IMG/VR virus record: IMGVR_UViG_3300020352_000002
Location: 1-42,156 of that record
DNA length: 42,156 nucleotides
Reading direction: 5' to 3' (one strand)
Source of the DNA: a virus
Taxonomy: Duplodnaviria > Caudoviricetes
The position numbers and the translations under genes are program-made. Below, piece after piece: positions 8,186 through 26,001 of this stretch. How positions within the stretch are numbered: position 1 is the stretch's first letter; every line of letters begins with the position of its first letter. The notes beneath the pieces are model-generated. The model saw nothing but the letters and a program-made list of their open reading frames with translations. It did no database searches and was not told the origin of the DNA.

Positions 8186-8204
8186 TAATAGTGCACCTTT
8201 TTAA
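8186..8204 (-). promoter_or_regulatory. Putative phage-RNAP late promoter TTAAAAAGGTGCACTATTA
   Basis: One of three copies of AAAAAGGTGCACTAT; heads the structural genes; resembles SP6/T7 ...CACTATAG. Confidence 0.75.
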
Positions 8205-8303: not shown

Positions 8304-10220
8304 TTAGATTTCACACTGACCAGCTACACAAGCTAACTCCTGTGTCCCTGTCGTAGTGTCTTCCTTCTCGAACTCACCTAACCTGTCCCAATCTATCTCA
8401 GAGGGTAAAGCCAGTTTAAGTATCTTGTACATATCTTGATCAATAGCCTCGTAAGGGGCTTGCTGGTATACATGGTCAGTCCGTGGTAGGAAGCTGATAC
8501 CTGAGCAGCTATCCAGCCTGTCCCATAACCATTGACCTGCCGCTAAGAACTCAGCATCAGAATAGTAAATAGTTACACTTGGCTTATGCTCACACCAGTT
8601 GTCCTGATAGACTTCCCACAGATCAAGCTGAGTCTTAACGTCTAGCTCATCAACACTCGTAGCACCGTCAGGAGCTTTCACGGGGAACGAGAAGATGTAG
8701 TTCTCCTCATTCATTACGTCTGTCTCCCAAGGCACTCCAGCGTCTTTGAGGAAGTCTGTGATAGGGTCTTTCCCATCGGAGCGTACCCGTCTGATATAGT
8801 GTGGAGAGAACCGAGCGTGTATACCTGATGCACTATCCACTAACTGACTGACTGTACCTGATGGTTTCACACAAGTAATAGCTGTTGACTGATTAAGGCC
8901 TAGCTCGTTAGACCATCGTTTGTTAGTGTCGATGGCTACCTGCTTTAGCCTCAGCAATACGTCACTAAGGATAGGCTGATTAGGGTGATCAAACCATGTA
9001 CCGCTTGTCTGCTTCCCTGAGAGTACCGAGTGATCCATGATGCCTGTCATGCTCACACCAAGTAGGCACTCCTCTTCCGTGTTCTTCTTCCAGACAGAAC
9101 GCACGTAGCGGAAGTCAGTTAAGGATGACTGTAGTGTTCCTAGTATGGTAGCAATCTCAACCTTGCGTTTTAAATCATCAAAGCTATCTGTTGCTCGAAC
9201 TACTACCTCAGAAAGATTACATACCTGAGCTGATCTTAAGATTATCTCCGAACAGGGGTTTGTACCGAACGCATGATCTATATCTCTTCGTCCACTCTTC
9301 TCTGCTTGTTTCTTCGCTGCACTCCTAGAGAAGATACCACGCTCACCAGCCTTTGACTTATAGAGAGCAGTCCATTCTTCCAAGAAGGTTTCAAAGTCTG
9401 GTTTATCTGTGTAGACAGCACTGTTATTAGCAAGCGCCCTTTGTGTATCAGTCTCCCACCAATTACCAGACTTAGCATGACGCATCCGATCATCACTAAG
9501 GTTAGACAAACTAATAAGCGCACTCCTACGGACACCACCAACGACAACAATCTCTGCAACTTTACATACAATATCATGGCATTCTAAACTCGTAAGCTTC
9601 CGTCCGCAAGCAGCTTTAAAAGTGGCAACAGTGAAATGGAACAGAGCAACAAGAGGGTCAGCTCCACTACTACGTCCTCCGAAGGTTTTAAGCCTTTCAC
9701 CTTTTTTACGTAGACGGCTAACATCCCAAGAAGGTACTTGACCCGTATACAAAAGACTAACCAACTCACGGAAAGCTTTAGCCCAACCAATTTTAGAGTC
9801 TTGTACAATGATTGTCGTATCTGTTTCATGGAACTCTTCTGCCACCTCTGGTAGTTTGTTTACTGATTGACGCTCGACTGAGAAGCCTACACCTGTACCA
9901 CACATCAGTACGTATAGGATCTCATCGAACACTCTTACATTATCAACTGCAATATATGAGCAGTTAAAGCCAGCCATGTTATCTCTGTCTAGTGCCTTAC
10001 CTGCTGTCATCAAACAGCGCATAGATGGCATGACATCTTGATTGTAGATGGCTTTGTATAATCGCTCACTTGTATCGTAATCTATCTGACCTCTAGCAAC
10101 CCAAAAGTCTGTGTAACGTCTGACTGTTTCTGCCCAAGTCTCTCGTCTGTTATCTTCTTCTCTCCAACGGGCGTAACGTGACTTGTGTATGTACTGCTGA
10201 TATGAATCCATTTTACTCAT
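8304..10220 (-). CDS. nrdJ: Class II (adenosylcobalamin-dependent) ribonucleotide reductase, monomeric RTPR-like
   Basis: FNC, VGGVRRSA, GTNPCSEI, CNLSEV, TCVKPSGTVS, C-terminal CVAGQC; no beta subunit gene present. Confidence 0.92.
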   Translation of the reverse strand: MSKMDSYQQYIHKSRYARWREEDNRRETWAETVRRYTDFWVARGQIDYDTSERLYKAIYNQDVMPSMRCLMTAGKALDRDNMAGFNCSYIAVDNVRVFDEILYVLMCGTGVGFSVERQSVNKLPEVAEEFHETDTTIIVQDSKIGWAKAFRELVSLLYTGQVPSWDVSRLRKKGERLKTFGGRSSGADPLVALFHFTVATFKAACGRKLTSLECHDIVCKVAEIVVVGGVRRSALISLSNLSDDRMRHAKSGNWWETDTQRALANNSAVYTDKPDFETFLEEWTALYKSKAGERGIFSRSAAKKQAEKSGRRDIDHAFGTNPCSEIILRSAQVCNLSEVVVRATDSFDDLKRKVEIATILGTLQSSLTDFRYVRSVWKKNTEEECLLGVSMTGIMDHSVLSGKQTSGTWFDHPNQPILSDVLLRLKQVAIDTNKRWSNELGLNQSTAITCVKPSGTVSQLVDSASGIHARFSPHYIRRVRSDGKDPITDFLKDAGVPWETDVMNEENYIFSFPVKAPDGATSVDELDVKTQLDLWEVYQDNWCEHKPSVTIYYSDAEFLAAGQWLWDRLDSCSGISFLPRTDHVYQQAPYEAIDQDMYKILKLALPSEIDWDRLGEFEKEDTTTGTQELACVAGQCEI

Positions 10221-15520: not shown

Positions 15521-15875
15521 CTGGGATAATTTCCTCTGCATATATAAACCCGTGTCTTTCTGCCCATTCAGCACACGTCATTTTAGTGCCGTCTTTGCGT
15601 TTCTTTGCACCTTGCACAGTGCTCTTATTTTTTTGGAATAAAAATCGAATGTCCAAGTCAGGGTGTTGTTCCTTCATGCTTCTCATCTTACGTTGAGCAT
15701 CTTGTCGGAAGTAACCCTTCACCTCGATATACATATCACCTATCTTTAAATCAGGAATGTAATTACGTTCTACCACGTAGGGTAGCTTACAAGGTTCATA
15801 CTCATAAGCTACTCCACGGGCATTGAGGTTTTGTTGGACTCGTTCTTCTAGGGTCGATCTAGAAGTCTGAGGCAT
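15498..15875 (-). CDS. Endonuclease I (T7 gp3-like resolvase)
   Basis: RSTLE, YIPD, IEVKG, PDLDIRF, WAERHGF; likely start MPQT at 15875. Confidence 0.92.
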   Translation of the reverse strand: MPQTSRSTLEERVQQNLNARGVAYEYEPCKLPYVVERNYIPDLKIGDMYIEVKGYFRQDAQRKMRSMKEQHPDLDIRFLFQKNKSTVQGAKKRKDGTKMTCAEWAERHGFIYAEEIIPDEWLSGE

Positions 15876-16470
15876 CAAACGCAACCTCCTCTTTGACAGC
15901 TGCTGTTGCGGAGGGGGCAACATAACCGTCCTCTTCATCGAACACGGAGCTTGCGGAGTTACCATATTCAATAAGATCAATTACCTGAACTGCCTTCAGG
16001 CGTAATGAAACACCTGCCTTCTTCGTGCTAGGCATGACGTAAGCAATCGGTTCAAAGGCAACCTTAACCTTAGATCCGTTACCAATAAGGACACTCTTGT
16101 CCATTGGCTGAACCTTAGCATCAAACACAGCTGGCTCTTGCTCGTAGTATGTACCATCACGTTTTCTAACCTTGGCTTTGAGCTTGAACTTAAACTCAAC
16201 ATTACCAGTGTCATCACCTGTTTCCCTATCATAGACAGGTTGACAAACAGGTTGTGTGGTCAGCGTGTTCTTGAGGCGTGGGTCATTCTCCACTGCTTCT
16301 GCAAACTTCGCTTGAACTATTGATTCTAGTTTCTCACACATCTGAGCTGACTCAGCTTCAGGCATTTGTATGTTGATGGAATAATCACCATCTGGATTAA
16401 ACTTCGTATCAGGCTCAGTTACTTTTGCCCACATAGCTGTACCTGCAATCTTCATAATATTTTTAGACAT
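15859..16470 (-). CDS. Single-stranded DNA-binding protein (T7 gp2.5-like)
   Basis: PDTKF, IGNGS, GVSLRLKAVQV; acidic tail ending in Phe. Confidence 0.92.
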   Translation of the reverse strand: MSKNIMKIAGTAMWAKVTEPDTKFNPDGDYSINIQMPEAESAQMCEKLESIVQAKFAEAVENDPRLKNTLTTQPVCQPVYDRETGDDTGNVEFKFKLKAKVRKRDGTYYEQEPAVFDAKVQPMDKSVLIGNGSKVKVAFEPIAYVMPSTKKAGVSLRLKAVQVIDLIEYGNSASSVFDEEDGYVAPSATAAVKEEVAFDASDF

Positions 16471-16509
16471 ATTAAATATTCCTATATAGTTTAGTTGAAC
16501 GGGGGAGGG

Positions 16510-16526
16510 CTATAGTGCACCTTTTT
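16510..16526 (-). promoter_or_regulatory. Putative phage-RNAP middle promoter AAAAAGGTGCACTATAG
   Basis: Immediately after the RNAP stop and upstream of SSB, as for T7 class II promoters. Confidence 0.8.
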
Positions 16527-16528
16527 GA

Positions 16529-18193
16529 TTAGGCGAAAAAATAGTCACTCTGTAACACTTCATTTAAGTTAAGGTCTCCTTTCTCAGGTGGTGGTGGAAT
16601 AACCACATCACTCGGTAATGTAGTTACTGCGTCTTCGTAGATATTGAGAAGTACGTCATTGTCTTGATAGAGTCTGACAAAAGCTTCTCGTAACCTCTTG
16701 TTTAATAACGGCATATTGGTACTGTGTGTAGCGTAAGAGTCATGCACCATTGCAAAGTCAATTATACCATCCTTGAGACACTCATGTACAGTCAACGTCA
16801 AAGCTGCTGCATCGAGTGAGTGTACAAAGTTAGGGCTTGCTCCTGATAAAACCTTACGTCTGTCTATGGTGTCCATAATAGCCTCGTTGTAACTTAGCTG
16901 AATGATTGACCCACTGATATGAGACTTCACTCTCCTCTTCCTATTCTCTTTGTAGTCTTGCCTGACAACTAGGTTGGTTGGCGTAGTCCAAGAGAATATA
17001 AAACCATTCTCAACATACAGCTTAGCTATCTCCTTGATGTAATTCATGGCACTGAAAGCTGAGACAATAACTTCACCTATTGCTTGCCACACAAAACCTG
17101 ACAGATAACACGATGCCTCAAACAGGTCATCATACCATGGGTTATCACCCTTGCATTTATCTTCTAAGGCTTCCTTGATGTATTCTCGACAAGCGTGACG
17201 TGTACCACTGTACGGCACAATCATCACTGACCGCTTGGTGAGCTTTCGGCATATGCCTATGTCTAGTAACTGTTTAGCCATGACATCTGTCTGTTGCTCT
17301 AGCAGTTTGGTTGTCCTTGCTGCAACATCAGCATAAATATCCTGAGGCTCATTACTAGGCGTTAGGTTCACAGCTCGACCCCCTTCAGAGTCCCTGAGCA
17401 TCGCTGAGAGGTGTTGTAATCCGTTACAGCTGCCATCACTAGCACAAGGCAAACGTGTCTCAAACGGCTCTCCAAAGCCTCTCAGGCGTACATCGTTATA
17501 CTCTGCCCACTCAGCACACCATGCTAGTGCCTGCCAAGGTTTGTCTGCCTCTTGCCACCACTTACATTCATAAGGGTTATTATAAACATTGACAGCATTT
17601 TCTATATTCATGTACGCCCACATCTCACGCTCTTCTAGGCTAACCTTGTCCACTCCGAACACGTTAGCTCCGTGTATGGCCAGCCATTGTGCATCACCAT
17701 CGTGAAGTATGGTAGCTGGGCGAGAGAACTCTAGTAGTGCTTTAGAGTAATCAGCATTCTGTGGTGATAGGAACGACTCAACAGGGTACTTACGGCCTCT
17801 AAAGTCGCACTGCCATACGAACCAGAAGTTGTCCATAGTAGCGTATTCTTCTGCAAGCTGTAATGTACGCTCGACCTGAATACGCTTAGATAAGTTCTTG
17901 GCATTCTCAGTGTAGATAGCATTACGTAAAGTTTTAAATTCCTTAAACTCTTTGGTTTGTTCTTCATTAAGGTGACGAGGCTCGACACTAAAAGGATAGT
18001 TAGGTAATTCTTGGTTATCCCTTGAAGGTAAACCTTCCCACTTCTCACCGCTCTCCCAAGCAGTGCGTAGTGTTTCCAAAACAAACTTGTTCACTCTCCA
18101 TGGTGTACGTTGCAGTGCGTTAACACATTCGTACTCAAGGGAGTTATCACGATTGTTGTGATCATCGACAAATTGTTTTAAGTCTTCTCTCAT
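16529..18193 (-). CDS. T7-type RNA polymerase, catalytic portion (thumb/palm/fingers)
   Basis: DFRGR, motif A DGSCNGLQH, motif B RKLTKRSVMIVPY, PNFVHSLDA, motif C VHDS, C-terminal YFFA. Confidence 0.96.
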   Translation of the reverse strand: MREDLKQFVDDHNNRDNSLEYECVNALQRTPWRVNKFVLETLRTAWESGEKWEGLPSRDNQELPNYPFSVEPRHLNEEQTKEFKEFKTLRNAIYTENAKNLSKRIQVERTLQLAEEYATMDNFWFVWQCDFRGRKYPVESFLSPQNADYSKALLEFSRPATILHDGDAQWLAIHGANVFGVDKVSLEEREMWAYMNIENAVNVYNNPYECKWWQEADKPWQALAWCAEWAEYNDVRLRGFGEPFETRLPCASDGSCNGLQHLSAMLRDSEGGRAVNLTPSNEPQDIYADVAARTTKLLEQQTDVMAKQLLDIGICRKLTKRSVMIVPYSGTRHACREYIKEALEDKCKGDNPWYDDLFEASCYLSGFVWQAIGEVIVSAFSAMNYIKEIAKLYVENGFIFSWTTPTNLVVRQDYKENRKRRVKSHISGSIIQLSYNEAIMDTIDRRKVLSGASPNFVHSLDAAALTLTVHECLKDGIIDFAMVHDSYATHSTNMPLLNKRLREAFVRLYQDNDVLLNIYEDAVTTLPSDVVIPPPPEKGDLNLNEVLQSDYFFA

Positions 18194-18972
18194 AGTCCGT
18201 GTATCCTCATAAAAGGTTTCTTGTTGATATGTTCAGAGTAGTAACCACCACCATAAAAGGAATCCCAATCCTTAGGCTCGATAATACAAGGAGAATAACG
18301 TGGTAGATTATTCATGTTAGCGTTGTTAAATGCCTCAATCCAATCGAGAGTCTCAGCGGTTGGGTCGAGGTATGCTACTGACTTATTCCTATTAAATTTT
18401 TTCCTTATTTTAACGATACCTGTGTGCTCAATGATAAGGTTAATCATAAACAAACCAACCTTCATACGATCAGTCTTAGACCACTCGTCTATCTCAATGC
18501 CGTCTACTTTCATCTTATGGTTAAGACCATGACGCTTGTGATCAAAACCTTTATCCGATTTCTTATTAGCCAGCTTGATAACATTTCGTGCTACCTCAGG
18601 GTCTTCTACTATCCATTTGTCTAGCTTGTCTTGGGTCTCTATCTGTTTACCTACATAGAGAGCTACAGCAACTAACCTACTAACAGAGGCAACATGGTCT
18701 ACCACTGATAGTAAAGATAAGAAGCAAGCCGATGCTGGGTTAACTCCATTGATTAACTTATGCACCCTATCGTTCTTACCTCTTGGTTTCTTCAACGCTT
18801 CAATTAAAGCATCAGTCAAAGGTTCGCATACCCCTGATATTATCCTCCTACCGTGTTTAGTTTTAGACTCTAAGTTCTTAGCTTGTAAATCATCTTTCTG
18901 TTTTAGGTATCTATCCATACCTGACTGAACCATTCTATTTTCTAGCTCAATCTGTTCCTCTAGTGTAGCCAT
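18190..18972 (-). CDS. T7-type RNA polymerase, N-terminal domain portion
   Basis: QIELENRM..G..R start, WSKTDRMKVG, PCIIEPKDW...GGGY; ATGA overlap with the catalytic ORF. Confidence 0.9.
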   Translation of the reverse strand: MATLEEQIELENRMVQSGMDRYLKQKDDLQAKNLESKTKHGRRIISGVCEPLTDALIEALKKPRGKNDRVHKLINGVNPASACFLSLLSVVDHVASVSRLVAVALYVGKQIETQDKLDKWIVEDPEVARNVIKLANKKSDKGFDHKRHGLNHKMKVDGIEIDEWSKTDRMKVGLFMINLIIEHTGIVKIRKKFNRNKSVAYLDPTAETLDWIEAFNNANMNNLPRYSPCIIEPKDWDSFYGGGYYSEHINKKPFMRIHGL

Positions 18973-18974
18973 GT

Positions 18975-19163
18975 CTAACCCTCGTTTTGGGACATAAAAT
19001 ATTTCTCATACAAAGCATCCTCATCTAAATAATCAGGTATGCTCGATGGCCTATTTATCTGTATCTTAGCAAGAACATCAGCATACCTTCTGTTGTAATC
19101 GGCAATAGCCGCATCAGGTATAACTATCTTACTGCTCATCGTACCACTGCTCCTCTCTGGCAT
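18975..19163 (-). CDS. Early hypothetical protein
   Basis: ORF in the tightly packed early array. Confidence 0.55.
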   Translation of the reverse strand: MPERSSGTMSSKIVIPDAAIADYNRRYADVLAKIQINRPSSIPDYLDEDALYEKYFMSQNEG

Positions 19164-19314
19164 CGTCAGGGTCTTTCAAGTTAGTAAATGACATACCAGT
19201 GCAGTTGCCCTCAAGGTCAGCTAAGAATTCCAAAGCCTCTTGATAGTCACTGAAATCATTTTCATGGTAGCCGTTAGTGTTACTCCACGAGATTAGATAT
19301 CTATTCATCTTCAA
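19129..19314 (-). CDS. Early acidic hypothetical protein
   Basis: ORF overlapping neighbours. Confidence 0.6.
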   Translation of the reverse strand: MKMNRYLISWSNTNGYHENDFSDYQEALEFLADLEGNCTGMSFTNLKDPDDAREEQWYDEQ

Positions 19315-19597
19315 ATCTCTCCAGACTCAAGTAAGTTGTTTGTTCGTCAGCTAATAACTGACCATGTAAATTATGTGCTGCATCTATTGTACCAACCAAT
19401 GACTCGTAGTCACGCTCTGTACCATCGTCAAGCCTCTTGCCCCATCTAATCATAATCAAATGTTCAGACTCTTCAAACTTCTTGTACGGTTTATCATCAT
19501 ACGTAGAACCGTCAGGATTAACCCATAAACCATCACCAAGATACTTAGGCTCACCCTGCACACCTCCAACATTGTCATAGAACTCTGTATCACTCAT
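19301..19597 (-). CDS. Early hypothetical protein (MSDTEFY...)
   Basis: Likely ATG at 19597 after GGGGTG; overlaps upstream stop. Confidence 0.6.
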   Translation of the reverse strand: MSDTEFYDNVGGVQGEPKYLGDGLWVNPDGSTYDDKPYKKFEESEHLIMIRWGKRLDDGTERDYESLVGTIDAAHNLHGQLLADEQTTYLSLERFEDE

Positions 19598-19736
19598 CGT
19601 CATCACCCCAATACACGTCATTAAAATCACGCAGTGTCTTCAACACCTGAGCGTATGTAAAGCCCCTACTGATAGCATCAGCACCAAAGGCTATCTCAAA
19701 CACTTCCTCAATGAACTCCTCACTACTCATCTTCAT
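19590..19736 (-). CDS. Small acidic early protein (48 aa)
   Basis: Not in ORF track; MKMSSEEFIEEVFEIAFG...; overlaps both neighbours. Confidence 0.55.
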   Translation of the reverse strand: MKMSSEEFIEEVFEIAFGADAISRGFTYAQVLKTLRDFNDVYWGDDDE

Positions 19737-19866
19737 TGTCCTCATCAACCATTAAGATTATCTCAAAGCCACCATCAAGTCTTTCAAACTTCCACTGCCA
19801 ATCTTCGCCATAATGTTTACTCAATACATTATCTAGGTCATCTAAAAAAGTTAAGTCACCTTTCAT
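19723..19866 (-). CDS. Small acidic early protein (47 aa)
   Basis: Not in ORF track; MKGDLTFLDDLDNVL...; ATGA overlap with the upstream gene. Confidence 0.55.
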   Translation of the reverse strand: MKGDLTFLDDLDNVLSKHYGEDWQWKFERLDGGFEIILMVDEDNEDE

Positions 19867-20054
19867 CGCTTCCACCCCACTGTCTTACCTTCGCACTGAG
19901 CGAACCAAAAGTTAATATCATCAGCAATCTGCTGGGCTGTAGCGTCACCATCTACAATCTCAATGTCACTAGGCTTGACCTTAACAGACCAGTAGAACTC
20001 TTTGCTGTCCCTGTAGGTAGTGATGTCACCACCATCCATATAATACTGGAGCAT
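19863..20054 (-). CDS. Early hypothetical protein
   Basis: GGAGG SD; TAATG coupling. Confidence 0.65.
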   Translation of the reverse strand: MLQYYMDGGDITTYRDSKEFYWSVKVKPSDIEIVDGDATAQQIADDINFWFAQCEGKTVGWKR

Positions 20055-20200
20055 TATACAACCTCCACTTCATAAGGTAATTCATCATCCATCATCAGCT
20101 CTATCAGATGTTGATGTAAAGATAGTTTAAGCTCTACACCGTCTTCCATAAACTCGTCTTTATCAAATGGTATTCTAATTACTATTTCACCCTTTCCCAT
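20054..20200 (-). CDS. Small acidic early protein (48 aa)
   Basis: Not in ORF track; MGKGEIVIRIPFDK...; TAATG coupling at both ends, GGAG SD. Confidence 0.6.
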   Translation of the reverse strand: MGKGEIVIRIPFDKDEFMEDGVELKLSLHQHLIELMMDDELPYEVEVV

Positions 20201-20490
20201 TAGTTAAACTCCACGTTTTGTTCAAAGACATCATCGGTAGCATTGTAGTATGCGTGTTCGCCTGTAGCATGGTTGTACATATACAGGTACTCCTTGTCAG
20301 CCCATGTGAATGGTGTCTCTAAGCCACCGCAAGCTGGTCGCCATGCGTAGTCGTTAGTGTAGATGTTATGAATGTCCATAGTCGTCTCCGTATTAATTGG
20401 TTGAGCACCCTTCTGACAAAAGATGCGGTTATAGTTTGTATTGTACTTCTCGGCATTGGTTGGCCGCCTTGCGCTACCCTTGCCCATCAC
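20200..20490 (-). CDS. Early hypothetical protein (possible internal start MDIHN)
   Basis: AAGGAG SD; second GGAG-ATG inside. Confidence 0.6.
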   Translation of the reverse strand: MMGKGSARRPTNAEKYNTNYNRIFCQKGAQPINTETTMDIHNIYTNDYAWRPACGGLETPFTWADKEYLYMYNHATGEHAYYNATDDVFEQNVEFN

Positions 20491-20602
20491 GAATCTCCTT
20501 CTTAACCTGACCCCTAGCTTTCTGTCTATCCTTAGCTTTGAGTCTTTTCTTTAAGCGTTTCTCCCATGCACGACTAAGACAGTTTACTTTTTCCTTAGTC
20601 AT
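20474..20602 (-). CDS. Small basic early protein (42 aa)
   Basis: Not in ORF track; MTKEKVNCLSRAWEKRLKKR...; ATGA overlap, AAGGAGG SD. Confidence 0.55.
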   Translation of the reverse strand: MTKEKVNCLSRAWEKRLKKRLKAKDRQKARGQVKKEIRDGQG

Positions 20603-20823
20603 ATGCCCTCCTTAATACGCTTGAGACTAAAGATGTCTAGCTTGCCACCTGCAACAGGGTTGAGTGTATCAGCCTCAGGCTTTCCTTTAATGTTCATCTT
20701 AATCGGATAAACAGTAACGCACAGCTCGCCATGCTCATTAGGAAATATATTTAACTCATAATCAGTGTCGCCCATGTAAACAACAGACCACTCATCAAAC
20801 TCAAGCTCATGTAACTTATCCAT
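20599..20823 (-). CDS. Early hypothetical protein
   Basis: GGGGAG SD; overlaps neighbours. Confidence 0.65.
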   Translation of the reverse strand: MDKLHELEFDEWSVVYMGDTDYELNIFPNEHGELCVTVYPIKMNIKGKPEADTLNPVAGGKLDIFSLKRIKEGI

Positions 20824-21016
20824 CGACTTTCTCCCCAGCAGGTGCGTTCTCTAACAACCACTCCAAATTATAATGCTCTTCACCCACAGCAAACATAGGA
20901 TTACCAAGACTTGATACCCATATCTCATGTATCTTATGACCATTGATGGTATCACCCACACTAACATAGTTATTAAGTATGTGTTCTGAATCTTGAAACC
21001 TTTTTACTTCTCGCAT
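20816..21016 (-). CDS. Early hypothetical protein (MREVKRF...)
   Basis: GAGGA SD before ATG at 21016; the longer ORF-track version runs through a terminator. Confidence 0.65.
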   Translation of the reverse strand: MREVKRFQDSEHILNNYVSVGDTINGHKIHEIWVSSLGNPMFAVGEEHYNLEWLLENAPAGEKVDG

Positions 21017-21036
21017 GACAATATCCTCTAGTTTAG

Positions 21037-21065
21037 AAAAAGAGAGGGCAGGATAACCTACCCTC
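21037..21065 (-). terminator. Early intrinsic terminator
   Basis: GAGGGTAGG-TTAT-CCTGCCCTC-TCTTTTT. Confidence 0.65.
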
Positions 21066-21072
21066 GAATGCC

Positions 21073-21085
21073 CCGAACGGTTCGG
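21073..21085. repeat. Palindrome CCGAACGGTTCGG
   Basis: Direct reading; 4 nt after a stop codon. Confidence 0.85.
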
Positions 21086-21089
21086 AGAG

Positions 21090-21509
21090 TTACTTAGCAA
21101 CAACATCTCGGTTCTGAATGTCCCACATATAACGACCACCTACGTTCTCACGAGCGATAGTTAAGAACCCACGATGGTGTGAGGTGTAGGTAGTACCGTC
21201 AATGTTAGCATTGGGTCGACTAACAGCCTTGCGAGCCGTCACGATATACATATCGTTAAGGAACTGATACTTAGACTTACGCAAGCCAGACTTACGAGCA
21301 AGGAAGAAGCGATGGTTAAGCTTACCCACCCTACGATACACACCCTTACCAGTTACAGGGTTGACCTTGTAAGAGCCGTCAACATTACACAGACGAACCT
21401 TCTTAGTGTCATAGCGAACATCAAAGCCAAACATCGGTGCAACAGATGCGATTGAACGAACTAACGCCTTAGACATAAGACGTGACTTACCTATTGTTGA
21501 TAACAACAT
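21090..21509 (-). CDS. Basic early hypothetical protein
   Basis: 139-aa ORF with AGGAG SD. Confidence 0.7.
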   Translation of the reverse strand: MLLSTIGKSRLMSKALVRSIASVAPMFGFDVRYDTKKVRLCNVDGSYKVNPVTGKGVYRRVGKLNHRFFLARKSGLRKSKYQFLNDMYIVTARKAVSRPNANIDGTTYTSHHRGFLTIARENVGGRYMWDIQNRDVVAK

Positions 21510-21538
21510 AATACTTCTCCTGAAGTGTAGTTAGTACG

Positions 21539-22150
21539 TTAGTGTAGTAAATATGAGTAATGGACTTCGCTCACATGAGACCCATTATCCCATCGTTTGG
21601 ACTTTGTTGCAAGGTGGTCACACCAATCATCCCACAATTCCTCAGTACCGTACTCATGGCACACCCGAATGTAGTCACGGAGCTTGCGTAAGTTAGTTGC
21701 TTTTGCCTTGTCACCTTTAGGATTCTTAGCAAGTGTCAACGTCTTAGCGTCAAGACCCAACCGCCTGATGTTGTGTACGTCCATACACCCAACCAGACCA
21801 CCTATTAGCTGACAACAGAACCCTGCCTTTGGCAGACCGAGGCCATCAATGCGTAGAAATACCTGCATCAATGCCTCTGCCTTGTCGTCATCTAATCTAT
21901 CGCTGACAAGAATGTCCATAGTGTCAGCATAAATTTGTTCCATGTTATTTTCTAAATATGCGTAGAGCTTACCCTTACTGCCCCACAAGAACTTAGACTT
22001 AGCACCCTGAGCGACAACAGATGCCATCTGCTCACCTACTCCTAACCAGTTCTGCTGGATAGATAAGGATACCATGGTAATAACCAAGCCCATCTTGTAA
22101 GGGCTAGACTGTGCGAATTGCTGTACTTTTGTTGCATCACGTTGATACAT
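21539..22150 (-). CDS. HhH-GPD superfamily DNA glycosylase-like protein
   Basis: FLRIDGLGLPKAGF...VGCMDVHNIR matches a helix-hairpin-helix plus downstream Asp-x-His. Confidence 0.6.
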   Translation of the reverse strand: MYQRDATKVQQFAQSSPYKMGLVITMVSLSIQQNWLGVGEQMASVVAQGAKSKFLWGSKGKLYAYLENNMEQIYADTMDILVSDRLDDDKAEALMQVFLRIDGLGLPKAGFCCQLIGGLVGCMDVHNIRRLGLDAKTLTLAKNPKGDKAKATNLRKLRDYIRVCHEYGTEELWDDWCDHLATKSKRWDNGSHVSEVHYSYLLH

Positions 22151-22161
22151 AATAAACTCCC

Positions 22162-22174
22162 CCGAACGGTTCGG
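22162..22174. repeat. Palindrome CCGAACGGTTCGG abutting the SD
   Basis: Direct reading. Confidence 0.85.
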
Positions 22175-22180
22175 TGATAA

Positions 22181-22627
22181 TTAATAGTTGTACTTCTCTG
22201 CTAAATGGTCACGACTCGATGACTGATAGTCATTATATTGCTGTTTGGTTAGCTGTGTCCAGCGTTGGAAACCCTCGGCATATTCACGTTGCTTGTGCAT
22301 ATACTTAATAGCCGCCCACCCATTTTTAAACTTAAGGCTCTGCCATACCTCATGGTGATCGCAGTCCATCTCGTTTAACTCAAAGTAAACAGGAAAAGGA
22401 TTGTACTTAATCTTAGCTTCAAAGAACCAATCGTCTAAGTCCCACCACATACGCTGTAGCTTTGCCTTACTCATCAGACGATTACCAATATGTACAGTCC
22501 AGCCAATATTTCCTGAGCTGGTATGAACTTTAGTGTAGCCCATGTAACCGCCAAACAATTCGACATAATCCACGTTAGTAAATAGACGTGCCTTTAGGTA
22601 CTTAGTGTTTATGAATATCTTTTTCAT
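22181..22627 (-). CDS. Early hypothetical protein (MKKIFINT...)
   Basis: GAGGATTTCAAAAATG start context. Confidence 0.7.
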   Translation of the reverse strand: MKKIFINTKYLKARLFTNVDYVELFGGYMGYTKVHTSSGNIGWTVHIGNRLMSKAKLQRMWWDLDDWFFEAKIKYNPFPVYFELNEMDCDHHEVWQSLKFKNGWAAIKYMHKQREYAEGFQRWTQLTKQQYNDYQSSSRDHLAEKYNY

Positions 22628-22644
22628 TTTTGAAATCCTCAATG

Positions 22645-22821
22645 TTAGTCTAATCTTCTACCAATGATGTGCTGAATGATTGCTTTAGCAAAACGATATT
22701 CTTCACCCATCTCTTCATCATAAGCTTTAACTTCATCAAGATAAGCTTCTCTTTTTTTATCATATTGCAGTAAAGCGAATACGGTTTCAACTAAAGATGC
22801 CTCTAGTTTTTTACTTGCCAT
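22645..22821 (-). CDS. Small early protein (58 aa, MASKKLEASLVETVF...)
   Basis: Not in ORF track; GAGGATTTCAAAATG start context; first gene after promoter P2. Confidence 0.7.
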   Translation of the reverse strand: MASKKLEASLVETVFALLQYDKKREAYLDEVKAYDEEMGEEYRFAKAIIQHIIGRRLD

Positions 22822-22843
22822 TTTGAAATCCTCTTGAATGTCC

Positions 22844-22856
22844 CCGAACGGTTCGG
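22844..22856. repeat. Palindrome CCGAACGGTTCGG
   Basis: Direct reading; shares extended flanks with the 21073 copy. Confidence 0.85.
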
Positions 22857-22911
22857 AGAGTTGATAAAGTTGTTGGTCAGTACAAAGTATGTATTTCCCC
22901 CAACAGACTGA

Positions 22912-22940
22912 ATGATCTCATAGTCTAGCCCCTGAGTCAA
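22912..22940 (-). promoter_or_regulatory. Host sigma70-type early promoter P2
   Basis: TTGACT-17 nt-GATCAT with TGn extension. Confidence 0.6.
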
Positions 22941-23090
22941 GCCCCCCTGAAAACGGTTCGTACCGCCAGCCACTACAAAACCATGCCAGCCAACACAAGC
23001 CGCCAGCCACGACAAATACTATGGACATACTATGGACAAAACCCCCCGACCTGCCCGACCGACCGAGAGCAGCACTTCCCCCTCCCCTCC

Positions 23091-23103
23091 CCGAACCGTT
23101 CGG
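23091..23103. repeat. Palindrome CCGAACCGTTCGG
   Basis: Direct reading. Confidence 0.85.
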
Positions 23104-23121
23104 AGTACTTTTCTCTAGGCG

Positions 23122-23152
23122 AAAAAAAACCCCCGACCGAAGCCGAGGGTTT
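23122..23152 (-). terminator. Intrinsic terminator closing the first early operon
   Basis: CCCTCGGC-TTCG-GTCGGGGG followed by 8 T. Confidence 0.85.
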
Positions 23153-23168
23153 CTTGGGTGTTGCTGTT

Positions 23169-23354
23169 TTATTTTAAAACGTGCAATCCGTCTAATAGGT
23201 TCGCTTGCCTCTTAATAAAATGTCTTACTTGTTTCATTGTCCGACATTCAACAACCGAACCAGTAAGGTTTGGTGCATCGCTGGTGACATGGTAGACCAT
23301 ATTGATCACGTTGCCTTGTCGATCCCGTTTTGCAATATAAGTATATTTTTTCAT
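23169..23354 (-). CDS. Small basic early protein
   Basis: GGGAG SD; between the H1-like gene and the terminator. Confidence 0.7.
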   Translation of the reverse strand: MKKYTYIAKRDRQGNVINMVYHVTSDAPNLTGSVVECRTMKQVRHFIKRQANLLDGLHVLK

Positions 23355-23356
23355 TC

Positions 23357-24124
23357 TTACTTACTCCCTTTTTTAGTGGCTGTTTTCTTTTTAGCTGGAG
23401 CTTTTCGTTTAGCTGGAGCTTTTCGTTTAGCTGGAGCTTTTTTCTTAGCTGGAGCTTTTCGTTTAGCTGGAGCTGGAGTTGCTGGAGCGGTTAGCGTTTC
23501 CATAATCGCAAGCTTATTAGCTGGAGCATTTTGCAAAGCCCTTTCAGCGTTAGCGTTATCGATGGCGGTTTTCTTTGCCGCTTTCATTACCTTAACAACC
23601 GTTTTAAATAATGCCGAATCGCTTTGCTTTAAAGTTTCCAGCTCCTTAGTAATCGCATCGATCTCAGGATCAGCGCTTGCCGCTAATTTAATTTCCGAAA
23701 CCTTGCTAGCTTTTTTGGGGCTAGTGTTTGACCCTTTATTTATAGGGTTTTTTCTAGGCTTATATTTTAATCTCAATTCACTAGCCGATAATTTACAATC
23801 TTTGTTCAGCGCTTTCGCTTCAATATGTTTTTTAATTGGTGCGACCATGTTTTCTAATACTACATAGCGTTTATCGTTAAGCCCTCGCATCCCGTAAACG
23901 CTTTTCGTTTTCTTACCAGTAAGGTCTAGTACTAGCGCTTCAATCAATGCATCGAACTGTTTAACGGTCGTTATCTTATTATCAATACAAGCGCTTTTTA
24001 AAATAGAATAAACACTTTCTTCAACTGTTAAACCTTTCTTTGCAAAATTATCACTAGCCGTCTTGTAAGTGTTCAATTCTTTTTTAACGTCCTTAATGAT
24101 GCTATTTAAAATTGTCTTTTTCAT
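23357..24124 (-). CDS. Histone H1-like basic protein with PAK(R/K)KA repeats; probable first gene (255 aa)
   Basis: AAAGGA SD before ATG at 24124; C-terminal APAKRK/APAKKK repeats. Confidence 0.75.
   Translation of the reverse strand: MKKTILNSIIKDVKKELNTYKTASDNFAKKGLTVEESVYSILKSACIDNKITTVKQFDALIEALVLDLTGKKTKSVYGMRGLNDKRYVVLENMVAPIKKHIEAKALNKDCKLSASELRLKYKPRKNPINKGSNTSPKKASKVSEIKLAASADPEIDAITKELETLKQSDSALFKTVVKVMKAAKKTAIDNANAERALQNAPANKLAIMETLTAPATPAPAKRKAPAKKKAPAKRKAPAKRKAPAKKKTATKKGSK
23388..23473. repeat. 18-nt tandem repeat TTAGCTGGAGCTTTT(CGT/TTC), about 5 units
   Basis: Direct reading; encodes the H1-like tail. Confidence 0.85.
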
Positions 24125-24139
24125 TTTGAGATCCTTTGC

Positions 24140-24152
24140 CCGAACGGTTCGG
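24140..24152. repeat. Palindrome CCGAACGGTTCGG just upstream of the SD of the first gene
   Basis: Direct reading; extends to CCCGAACGGTTCGGG. Confidence 0.85.
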
Positions 24153-24231
24153 GTCATCTTTGGGGCTACTGTATAAATCCCCATACTGTATAAACGTACA
24201 GCTCGTCTGGTGGATTTTCCACCAATTGAAG

Positions 24232-24260
24232 ATGATACCACCGTTTACCCTTAAGGTCAA
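24232..24260 (-). promoter_or_regulatory. Strong host sigma70-type early promoter P1
   Basis: TTGACC-17 nt-TATCAT with TGn extended -10. Confidence 0.8.
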
Positions 24261-24269
24261 CAGTCTGCC

Positions 24270-24282
24270 CCGAACGGTTCGG
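24270..24282. repeat. Palindrome CCGAACGGTTCGG 9 nt upstream of the P1 -35 box
   Basis: Direct reading. Confidence 0.85.
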
Positions 24283-24319
24283 TGTCAAAAAACAGATAAG
24301 AACAAACAAACAAGCGAAC

Positions 24320-24730
24320 ACTAAAGAAAACCTAAGGCATGACCAACAGACTATTTATGTGCTGTCACGCCAACACTGTAGCACCCTAAGGATTCTGAAG
24401 TGTCCTAGGGTGTGGCCTTGTCCATCGTTTTACTGTATGTATGTACAGTATTCCTTGGGTGTGTATGGGGGAATGCCAGCCGCCACAACTACGTATAAGC
24501 ACCTCAGATTTTTCTGTCAAAATACGACCAAGATCCCTAAGAAGCTCTCTAGGAGACATCAGTGTTAAGGTAGCGTTGGGGGTCAACGAAACACTAAGGT
24601 CTCCCAGAGGAGCTTAGATCACCTCCTAGAAGGTATGGTGAAGGGGTGTGCTGCAAGGTGTGATCCTCAACAGGCTCATAAGACACCTTAGGAAACCTAA
24701 CAGGCTCATAAGATACCTTATATACTATAG
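24320..24730. other. Probable genome-terminus / concatemer-junction region
   Basis: Non-coding gap between last late and first early gene; many CCTAAG/CCTTAG/CCTAGG-like words recalling T7 end repeats. Confidence 0.6.
24669..24720. repeat. 22-bp direct repeat AACAGGCTCATAAGAYACCTTA x2, 30-nt period
   Basis: 24669..24690 and 24699..24720, one mismatch. Confidence 0.85.
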
Positions 24731-24747
24731 GTAACGGGGGGGGTCTT

Positions 24748-24768
24748 CCCTATAGTGCACCTTTTTAA
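24748..24768 (-). promoter_or_regulatory. Putative phage-RNAP promoter at the right end (phi-OR-like), TTAAAAAGGTGCACTATAGGG
   Basis: Third copy of the consensus, pointing into the terminus region with no gene downstream. Confidence 0.8.
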
Positions 24769-24779
24769 ACAGCACCTAC

Positions 24780-24792
24780 AATCAACAACTTA
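24780..24792 (+). promoter_or_regulatory. IHF-consensus box AATCAACAACTTA
   Basis: Matches WATCAANNNNTTR; intergenic. Confidence 0.55.
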
Positions 24793-24811
24793 CAACCCGT
24801 TAGGGTTGGTG

Positions 24812-25195
24812 TTAAAGTAGAGGGTTAGAGGGCTTATTCTTTATTTTCTCAAGTCTGCTCTCAAGACCTTTAAGTTCTTCTTGAATTGAGCTAACTTTTG
24901 TTTGAAGGACTCGTACATCTGATTTAATCTGCCCTGTACTTGGGATACGTATTGCTTCAACCTTGTCAGTTGTAGCTTTAACTTGTCCCCTAAGCTGTTC
25001 AATTTCTGTACTAATTGATCCAATGTCATTATCTTCTATCCTCACTTCTAGTTTAGTTAGTCTTGATTCAAGGTGTGTAGCATCTGTAGAAGCTTCTAGT
25101 GCAGACACCTTCTCTGTCAGAGTACCATACCCTACTGCTGCACCACCAATGGAGCTGGCTATGCCTATCCATAAGGCTACGTCTTGTGCATTCAT
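24812..25195 (-). CDS. N-terminally anchored coiled-coil protein
   Basis: Hydrophobic N-terminus then heptad-rich sequence. Confidence 0.7.
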   Translation of the reverse strand: MNAQDVALWIGIASSIGGAAVGYGTLTEKVSALEASTDATHLESRLTKLEVRIEDNDIGSISTEIEQLRGQVKATTDKVEAIRIPSTGQIKSDVRVLQTKVSSIQEELKGLESRLEKIKNKPSNPLL

Positions 25196-26001
25196 CGTAA
25201 TATCATCTCCATGTCTTGTTCTGGGTTGTTATTGTACAGTTGGTACATTACACTCTCTACACCTACGTTGTGCTGATTCCAGTCAAGGTTAAGCTGGCTG
25301 GGTATCAAGGCATCTATAGAGACTGAAGTGTTGGTAAAGAAGTCCATGACTGTGTTAGTGTTCATGAATGAGGCAGCTATTGTATCTATAACAAAGCTGT
25401 CTTGAGCGTAACCTTCGATCATATTCTTGGTCATACTTGCTTCTAGCATACCGTCAATGCTGGTGTTGAACTGCTGACGACTAGACTCTTTAATAGCCCG
25501 TAAATCATTCTCAGTTGCATAGGCCTCTGCATTGATTTTAGTCTGCTGGTCACCATCGACAAGCATCTCAGCTATCTCTGTGACTGCCGCTATCTCGCTC
25601 GCAGCTTCGATTAGAGAGTCTTTCTCTTCCTCATATGTACCTTGCTCTACGTCAATCATATCGTTCAGTAGAACGGCTGTGAGAGCCTCTGGAGTGCTGT
25701 TTGCTAAACCATCAGCATAAGCTGCATTAAAGACATCCATCTGTTCCGTAGTTAGTTCGTATTGTGTACCATCTTCGTTATTGTAGATAATGGTGTTACC
25801 ATCGAGCATAGACTGAGTAGTCCATTGGATGTAGTCCTGCATATTACTGTTTATTACAGTCGTTATGGTAGACGTGCTTTCGCTTAAGTGGGTCATATCG
25901 AAGTCGTTTTCCCCCGCACTCGCTGTCTTTGGTAACAATAACAGGAGCAACAGGGACAAACTCAGGGTGTTCCGTATAATATTTAAGTGCTTCATCTCCA
26001 A
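25192..26001 (-). CDS. Acidic putative secreted protein
   Basis: Signal-peptide-like LSLSLLLLLLLPKTASA; D/E-rich body. Confidence 0.65.
   Translation of the reverse strand: MEMKHLNIIRNTLSLSLLLLLLLPKTASAGENDFDMTHLSESTSTITTVINSNMQDYIQWTTQSMLDGNTIIYNNEDGTQYELTTEQMDVFNAAYADGLANSTPEALTAVLLNDMIDVEQGTYEEEKDSLIEAASEIAAVTEIAEMLVDGDQQTKINAEAYATENDLRAIKESSRQQFNTSIDGMLEASMTKNMIEGYAQDSFVIDTIAASFMNTNTVMDFFTNTSVSIDALIPSQLNLDWNQHNVGVESVMYQLYNNNPEQDMEMILR

What the first reader, a model, noticed from the sequence alone, without database searches (positions are those of the whole stretch)
16529..18972. T7-type RNA polymerase encoded as two genes (260 + 554 aa)
Seen: the N-terminal domain ends ...GGGYYSEHINKKPFMRIHGL-stop. 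The catalytic part starts MREDLK in the -1 frame through an ATGA overlap (18190..18193), with GAGGA about 10 nt upstream. ATGA coupling is used at several other junctions in this genome. All catalytic motifs are intact, phage promoters are present, and no sequence seems lost (814 aa total). Known: T7/SP6 RNAPs are single chains, while N4 RNAPII is a heterodimeric relative. Here DxxGR and motifs A-C all sit in the large ORF. By eye FMRIHGL aligns with T7 LVRTHSK near residue 300; from memory this is a seam tolerated in engineered split T7 RNAP, which needs verifying. Inference: a natural two-subunit enzyme whose promoter-binding N-domain is a separate, sigma-like part. Alternatives are a programmed -1 frameshift or a 1-nt assembly error.
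Basis: partly seen in the sequence, partly recalled or inferred. Interest (0 to 1): 0.85.

Follow-up and report, generated by a model that had tools for sequence, protein, structure and literature searches.

The report
Naturally two-piece T7-type RNA polymerase
This uncultured marine phage and all the close relatives examined encode their T7-type RNA polymerase as two separate, conserved genes, cut where engineered T7 polymerase is known to tolerate a cut; the two proteins are predicted to assemble into one working enzyme, a variant of a split already noted briefly in print for other ocean phages.

Summary
Confirmed. The phage's only RNA polymerase is two minus-strand genes (260 aa, 554 aa) joined by an ATGA overlap. 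It is not an assembly error: contigs from four other studies cross the junction without an indel, and 0 of 168 redundant loci holding both halves are fused (45 clusters at 90% identity). Frameshifting is unlikely: relatives separate the halves by 8, 19 or 307 nt, and the Arg codon inside the second gene's ribosome-binding site is AGG in 38 of 41 clusters. Both halves are under purifying selection (dN/dS 0.04-0.07). The cut maps to T7 residues ~300-302, a seam shown to tolerate engineered splitting (PMC4299498 supplement). A complex model supports binding, partly by likeness to T7. 'Sigma-like' is not supported: the specificity loop is in the large subunit. Two-part polymerases are in print for N4 RNAPII and group III pelagiphages (PMC6811365); those cut elsewhere and are probably separate events. 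This scan has reported similar splits on other DNA. Joint activity is untested. New variant of a known kind.

The parts
18190..18972 (-). Small subunit gene, 260 aa: T7-type N-terminal domain (T7 ~30-302); beta-hairpin at residues 187-204; conserved C-terminal latch at 224-260
   Evidence: PF14700; aligns to T7 35-299; model and fold match; interface
16529..18193 (-). Large subunit gene, 554 aa: thumb, palm, fingers, DxxGR, motifs A-C, specificity loop, C-terminal FFA
   Evidence: PF00940; aligns to T7 317-883; motifs
18190..18193 (-). ATGA stop/start overlap (likely translational coupling)
   Evidence: sequence; same 4-nt overlap in 155 of 168 loci
18204..18208 (-). GAGGA Shine-Dalgarno-like site of the large subunit gene, overlapping the Arg256 codon of the small gene
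   Evidence: sequence; AGG at this Arg in 38 of 41 clusters against 7-34% at four other conserved Arg
18979..18983 (-). GAGGG Shine-Dalgarno-like site of the small subunit gene
   Evidence: sequence; similar purine runs upstream in most relatives, read by eye
16510..16526 (-). Predicted phage promoter directly after the large subunit stop, facing the SSB/replication genes
   Evidence: three copies in the genome; a related element at the same place in relatives
8188..8202 (-). Predicted phage promoter ahead of the small genes that precede the head-tail connector
   Evidence: exact 15-mer copy; gene order
24750..24766 (-). Predicted phage promoter in the non-coding stretch after the terminase region (like T7's end promoter; comparison recalled)
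   Evidence: exact copy; context

Best explanation
The phage encodes its T7-type RNA polymerase as two genes under purifying selection, and the two separately translated proteins likely assemble into one stable enzyme that is predicted to transcribe from the phage's own AAAAAGGTGCACTAT promoters. Shown: two ORFs with nothing lost, the same seam across the clade, intact motifs, three promoter-like copies. Inferred: ribosomes finishing the small gene restart at the overlapping ATG, helped by a conserved Shine-Dalgarno site, which would give about equal amounts of both chains. Predicted: the last ~40 residues of the small chain, low-confidence when folded alone, pack against residues 1-32 and 109-142 of the large chain and replace the covalent link. 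By analogy with T7, the large chain reads the promoter's specific bases and catalyses, while the small chain helps bind upstream DNA and open the promoter and stays on during elongation. The split most likely arose once in this clade's ancestor, at a surface loop where cutting costs little.
For: No indel at the junction in contigs X5, X7, X14 and X18 (four studies other than the possible source studies). 0 of 168 loci with both halves are fused (88 distinct junction sequences, 45 clusters). The best 120 of 3226 homologs of the large ORF (53-87% identity; lengths 304-970 searched) are all 429-559 aa, 116 of them 552-559 aa. 80 of 84 small-ORF homologs end in the same R/K-x-H/W/N tail. The halves are separated by +8 nt with an in-frame stop right before an AGGAGG-preceded ATG (L172), by +19 nt (L012, L046, L111) or by 307 nt holding two small ORFs (L015). 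The large ORF starts with ATG in 166 and GTG in 2 of 168 loci; the SD-overlapping Arg codon is AGG in 38 of 41 clusters against 125 of 549 other Arg codons (clusters are related, so not independent). dN/dS is 0.038-0.041 (small) and 0.036-0.072 (large). The T7 seam 301-302 gives active split enzyme (PMC4299498 supplement). Complex prediction scored 0.84 against best control 0.03; this mark was reached by 116 of 157 solved complexes and 2 of 215 mismatched pairs; runs agree in at least 83% of contacts, partner pLDDT at least 63. Halves of a split gene tend to pass by likeness to solved T7 structures, so this shows likeness rather than binding.
Against: No protein, ribosome or activity data. The two RNA runs do not cover the junction. 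No cultured member and no host found. The complex score may come from memory of T7. 161 of 168 loci keep the -1 frame overlap geometry (-4 or -1), so a frameshift at some rate is not excluded for those loci. A fused singleton (P0208) nests among split proteins on long branches (95/90), so re-fusion or misplacement occurs.
Confidence: 0.88

Rival explanations
1. Programmed -1 ribosomal frameshift: ribosomes slip near the end of the small ORF and make one full-length chain.
For: The large ORF is in the -1 frame in the window and in 164 of 168 loci (gaps -4, -1, +8); the -1 frame is open for 13 codons before the ATG in the window. T7-like phages use -1 frameshifting in capsid genes (recalled).
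Against: No X-XXY-YYZ slippery heptamer in the window; one was found in only 3 of 43 cluster representatives with -1 geometry. L172 has a stop directly before the ATG and its own AGGAGG; L015 and L012/L046/L111 are in the +1 frame with inserted ORFs. The start codon and SD site are conserved, including ATG-to-GTG swaps.
Confidence: 0.05
2. The small subunit is a dissociable, sigma-like initiation factor that is released after promoter escape or swapped to change specificity.
For: It is a separate polypeptide holding the T7 N-terminal promoter-binding domain with its beta-hairpin; it diverges faster than the large subunit (e.g. 60% against 77% identity in L005).
Against: The specificity loop is in the large subunit. 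The predicted interface is large (159-181 contacts) and sits on the palm beside the DxxGR motif. The model's best fold matches are T7 elongation complexes, and T7's N-terminal domain refolds and stays during elongation (recalled). Each locus examined has one small-subunit gene beside the large one; I did not search whole relative genomes for extra copies.
Confidence: 0.05
3. Assembly error or a dead, broken gene.
For: Single-base errors are common in metagenome assemblies; the window is an uncultured contig.
Against: The same junction without indel in four other studies, 0 of 168 loci fused, strong purifying selection on both halves, and no other RNA polymerase gene in a complete genome.
Confidence: 0.01

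Closest known systems
Fragmented RNA polymerase genes of HTVC019Pvirus group III pelagiphages and uv-Fonsiphage-EPL (Chen et al. 2019, PMC6811365; passages read)
   Same: T7-like phages whose RNA polymerase gene is in two parts near the end of the N-terminal domain; confirmed here in HTVC041P, HTVC025P, Eyrgjafa, S30-C28 and KM23-C739; HTVC025P also has two small genes between the halves, like L015.
   Different: Different cut: there the large chain starts MHYN(L/F)IK, so the strand matching T7 LALVRTH goes with the large subunit; here it ends the small subunit. Large chains are 38% identical and fall in separate clades. A joint origin is rejected with p-AU 2e-5, or 0.03 when the three nearest fused proteins are allowed inside. 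The paper gives no seam position or mechanism in the passages seen.
Coliphage N4 RNAPII, gp15 (269 aa) + gp16 (404 aa) (Lenneman and Rothman-Denes review, PMC4496689; passages read)
   Same: A T7-family RNA polymerase built from two genes, shown biochemically to be a heterodimer.
   Different: N4 is cut after the thumb and DX2GR (both in gp15), has a truncated N-terminal domain, needs gp2 and occurs with a virion RNA polymerase. Here DxxGR is in the large chain, the N-terminal domain is full size, dsDNA T7-type promoters are present and no second polymerase is found.
Single-chain RNA polymerases of Autographiviridae (T7 RNAP; PF14700 + PF00940; PHROG 414)
   Same: Same domains, motifs, genome position before SSB/endonuclease/primase/DNA polymerase, and T7/SP6-type promoters.
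   Different: One chain of ~800-880 aa; 144 of the best 150 distant representatives are over 600 aa, the nearest fused ones 51-52% identical.
Engineered split T7 RNAP, seam 301-302 (Segall-Shapiro et al. 2014, PMC4299498; passages and supplement hits read)
   Same: The same cut site within about two residues; co-expressed halves are active.
   Different: Engineered by transposon; its 'sigma fragment' is the C-terminal 601-883 piece with the specificity loop, not the N-terminal domain.
Marine Autographiviridae group AG-7 (Du et al. 2025, PMC12361551; passages, section 14 and supplement hits read)
   Same: Relative L004 (80%/84% identical) is listed as AG-7, a group of 102 uncultured genomes.
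   Different: The word 'split' occurs 0 times in the main text and in the searched supplements (one scanned file not searchable). Only 1 of 5 relatives that I looked up was in the table, so how much of AG-7 is split is not established.

Membership tests
T7-type (single-subunit family) RNA polymerase | PF00940 catalytic domain with DxxGR and motifs A, B, C intact | tested here: met
   these residues are invariant or nearly so in 52 large-chain sequences
T7-type (single-subunit family) RNA polymerase | N-terminal promoter-binding domain (PF14700) with beta-hairpin | tested here: met
T7-type (single-subunit family) RNA polymerase | Encoded as one polypeptide | tested here: not met
   two ORFs; 0 of 168 loci fused
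T7-type (single-subunit family) RNA polymerase | Transcribes from its own ~20-bp dsDNA promoters without cofactors | not testable with these tools
   three promoter-like copies are present; activity untested
N4 RNAPII-type heterodimer (Schitoviridae) | Cut after thumb and DX2GR, truncated N-terminal domain | tested here: not met
   DFRGR at residues 130-134 of the large chain; small chain spans T7 35-299
N4 RNAPII-type heterodimer (Schitoviridae) | Occurs with a virion RNA polymerase in an N4-like genome | tested here: not met
   42-kb T7-like gene set; longest ORF 1180 aa; one PF00940 gene
Group III pelagiphage split RNAP (Chen 2019) | Gene in two parts near the N-terminal domain boundary | tested here: met
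Group III pelagiphage split RNAP (Chen 2019) | Same seam (large chain starts MHYN) and same clade | tested here: not met
   different seam; separate clades, p-AU 2e-5 and 0.03
Autographiviridae group AG-7 (Du 2025) | Placement in the seven-core-gene phylogeny | not tested
   inferred only from relative L004 being listed as AG-7
Sigma-like dissociable initiation factor | Carries the main promoter-specificity determinant | tested here: not met
   specificity loop aligns to the large chain
Sigma-like dissociable initiation factor | Released after initiation | not testable with these tools
   needs biochemistry

The most novel reading that the evidence does not exclude
A whole uncultured marine phage clade uses a self-sufficient two-subunit T7-type polymerase whose small subunit is exchangeable: it could leave after initiation, set activity by its amount, or be swapped between co-infecting relatives. 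That would make this a natural two-input switch, arisen by convergence at the seam that engineers found.
Probability: 0.1. Interest if true: 0.8.

Novelty: new variant of a known kind. Interest (0 to 1): 0.5.

Why it matters
It shows that the textbook single-chain T7 polymerase has been split naturally at least at two or three sites and kept that way across a widespread marine clade, here at the seam found by transposon mapping of T7. N4 reviewers call the origin and advantage of heterodimeric versus single-chain enzymes unclear (PMC4496689); this clade, with near fused relatives and apparent re-fusions, makes that question testable. It also offers dozens of evolved split polymerases with varied promoter sequences as candidate orthogonal AND gates without added zippers. 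Practically, length filters and gene callers will miscount these genes as broken.

Tried and rejected
RNA runs X19 and X20 hold small shares and no contig across the junction: no evidence on expression. Search for longer homologs of the small ORF: 0 of 1236 candidates passed, which the tool calls weak evidence; the exhaustive search did find fused relatives at 51-52%. Scan of prokaryote genome contigs for a prophage host: 49 pattern hits, none confirmed. A 'Porticoccaceae bacterium' label on one large-chain fragment (P0193) and AG-7 host predictions (Chloroflexota, Roseobacter with low scores) do not identify the host. The 12-mer promoter search with two mismatches was at chance level (4 against 3.7 expected); only the exact 15-mer count is used. 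Sigma-70 scan of 15800-25500: 20 sites against 19.6 expected, nothing usable. An earlier scan note's idea of a reversed phage promoter on the small gene's start codon: no copy within 7 mismatches of the 23-mer on the plus strand, and start regions do not follow the promoter variants by eye; not supported here. Loop-versus-promoter covariation was only listed and read by eye: relatives with like loops have like promoters, but relatedness explains that too. dN/dS for the small ORF against L004 was saturated. Literature searches found only PMC6811365 noting fragmented genes and none describing this clade's split or any test of activity; subscription papers are not covered, and Chen 2019's figshare supplement was not seen.

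Full report
Observation. The window is a complete 42,156-bp T7-like phage genome with direct terminal repeats and the usual gene set: SSB, endonuclease I, primase-helicase, DNA polymerase A, exonuclease, portal, scaffold, capsid, tail tube, terminase. Its only RNA polymerase is two minus-strand ORFs, 18190..18972 (260 aa) and 16529..18193 (554 aa), overlapping by ATGA, with GAGGA 10 nt upstream of the second start. The first matches PF14700, the second PF00940. Together they cover PHROG 414 at 2-266 and 271-816 of 816. All catalytic motifs are in the large ORF. The small ORF aligns to T7 35-299, ending at T7's LALVRT, so its last residues correspond to T7 ~300-302.

Not an error. Contigs of runs X5, X7, X14 and X18, from four studies other than the two that may be the source, cross the junction with substitutions but no indel. 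These are contigs, not raw reads. I fetched 170 viral and metagenome loci (the last two kept the best 80 of 118 and 80 of 135). With the window that is 171; three were dropped (no small half, no large-half hit, truncated). Of the 168 left, none is fused. They are redundant: 88 distinct junction sequences, 45 clusters at 90% amino-acid identity, spanning 41-100% identity in the small chain. The best 120 of 3226 large-chain homologs, searched over 304-970 residues, are all 429-559 aa. Both genes are under purifying selection: dN/dS 0.038-0.041 and 0.036-0.072.

Two proteins rather than a frameshift. The gap between stop and start is -4 in 155 loci, -1 in 6, +8 in 3, +19 in 3 and +307 in 1. In L172 the small gene stops, AGGAGG follows, and a stop codon stands directly before the large gene's ATG. 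In L012, L046 and L111 a short duplication repeats the ribosome-binding context and puts the large gene in the +1 frame. In L015 two small ORFs of unknown family lie between the halves. No frameshift can bridge these. The large gene starts ATG in 166 and GTG in 2 loci. The Arg codon of the small chain's terminal R-x-H, which overlaps the Shine-Dalgarno site, is AGG in 38 of 41 clusters, against 7-34% at four other conserved Arg and 125 of 549 overall; relatedness inflates the formal p value. A slippery heptamer is absent from the window and present in 3 of 43 cluster representatives with -1 geometry. Some frameshifting in overlap-type loci is not excluded.

Assembly. Folded alone, the small chain has a confident core with a beta-hairpin at 187-204, while residues 218-260 are below pLDDT 50; its best fold matches are T7 RNA polymerase complexes. 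In the complex prediction, residues 224-260 make the tightest contacts with residues 21-28 and 123-128 of the large chain. Score 0.84, best control 0.03; the mark was reached by 116 of 157 solved complexes and 2 of 215 mismatched pairs; contact agreement at least 83%, partner pLDDT at least 63. Split-gene halves tend to pass by likeness to solved T7 structures, so this is weak support. Stronger is that engineered T7 polymerase cut at 301-302 is active: this is one of five seams in the bisection map (PMC4299498, main-text passages and supplement Fig S3 legend and source table). Nine residues of the latch are invariant in 47 aligned sequences.

Promoters. AAAAAGGTGCACTAT occurs three times on the coding strand: right after the large gene, ahead of the structural region, and in the non-coding stretch after the terminase region. 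A related element follows the large gene in nearly all clusters listed, with a fairly constant CTATAG/TTAAG core and varying upstream bases (read by eye). This fits a working phage polymerase but is not a test of it. The specificity loop (T7 740-768, PMC11880802 passages) aligns to residues ~415-440 of the large chain, so the small chain is not the sigma-like part.

Origin. Among the best 150 representatives at 50% clustering, 144 are over 600 aa; the nearest fused are P0206 (52%) and P0208 (51%). Trees of the catalytic part (114 rows quick, 40 rows careful) put all window-type loci in one group with stand-alone 553-559-aa proteins, P0206 outside it and P0208 inside on a long branch. One split with occasional re-fusion fits best, but support is moderate and the root is not fixed. 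Five other public genomes (three cultured pelagiphages, two uncultured) are also split, about one beta-strand earlier, and form a separate clade. A joint origin is rejected at p-AU 2e-5, falling to 0.03 when three fused proteins are allowed inside; both tests were set after seeing the first tree.

What is known. Chen et al. [quoted passage not shown] I reached this paper through earlier scan notes and checked it. N4 RNAPII is a proven heterodimer cut after DX2GR (PMC4496689, passages). Du et al. 2025 list relative L004 in group AG-7 and do not use the word 'split' in the text or searchable supplements. The bioRxiv pelagiphage paper 10.1101/410191 (passages) does not mention a split. My searches found no description of this clade's seam and no activity test. 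The scan has reported similar splits on other genomes; none matched this sequence.

Verdict. Real, old and clade-wide. Most likely a translationally coupled, stable two-subunit T7-type polymerase (0.88). The kind is in print; the seam, the clade and the evidence for separate initiation appear new within the literature I could search. New variant of a known kind, interest 0.5.

Noticed in passing
window 13744, 21073, 22162, 22844, 23091, 24140, 24270 (13 nt each): Seven exact copies of the near-palindrome CCGAAC(C/G)GTTCGG, mostly between early genes; 0.03 matches expected by chance. Found in only 4 of 176 loci, all close relatives. Possibly a protein-binding site or processing hairpin.
   Followed up: partly
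window 23357..24241 (-): Early ORF ending in Lys/Ala/Pro repeats (KRKAPAKKKAPAK...), like a histone H1 tail; no Pfam or PHROG hit.
   Followed up: no
L017 (HTVC011P) RNA polymerase junction: The 'unsplit' gene keeps the group III large-chain start (MHYNLVK) in another frame and is one base shorter there than HTVC041P: a recent re-fusion or a sequencing indel.
   Followed up: partly
L015 1640-2732 and L176 1992-2080: tRNA-Leu(TAA) just upstream of the small gene in both, and a tyrosine integrase in L015: deeper-branching members look temperate. The window has no tRNA, and no integrase hit among the ORFs scanned.
   Followed up: partly
L015 3693-3997; L018 3173-3573: Two small unknown ORFs lie between the polymerase halves in both lineages: once split, the seam accepts gene insertions.
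   Followed up: partly
L012, L046, L111 junction: A 23-nt duplication creates an 8-codon mini-ORF coupled by ATGA at both ends between the halves.
   Followed up: partly
P0225, P0349: Stand-alone 538- and 559-aa catalytic parts outside both split clades in the tree: further independent splits or contig-edge fragments; DNA not seen.
   Followed up: no
window 8304..10220 (-): Class II (B12-dependent) ribonucleotide reductase-like gene.
   Followed up: no
window ~18995-19110: Near-identical strains diverge just upstream of the small gene (loose ends at 18994; L006) while the 25 nt before its ATG stay conserved: a variable small-gene slot.
   Followed up: no
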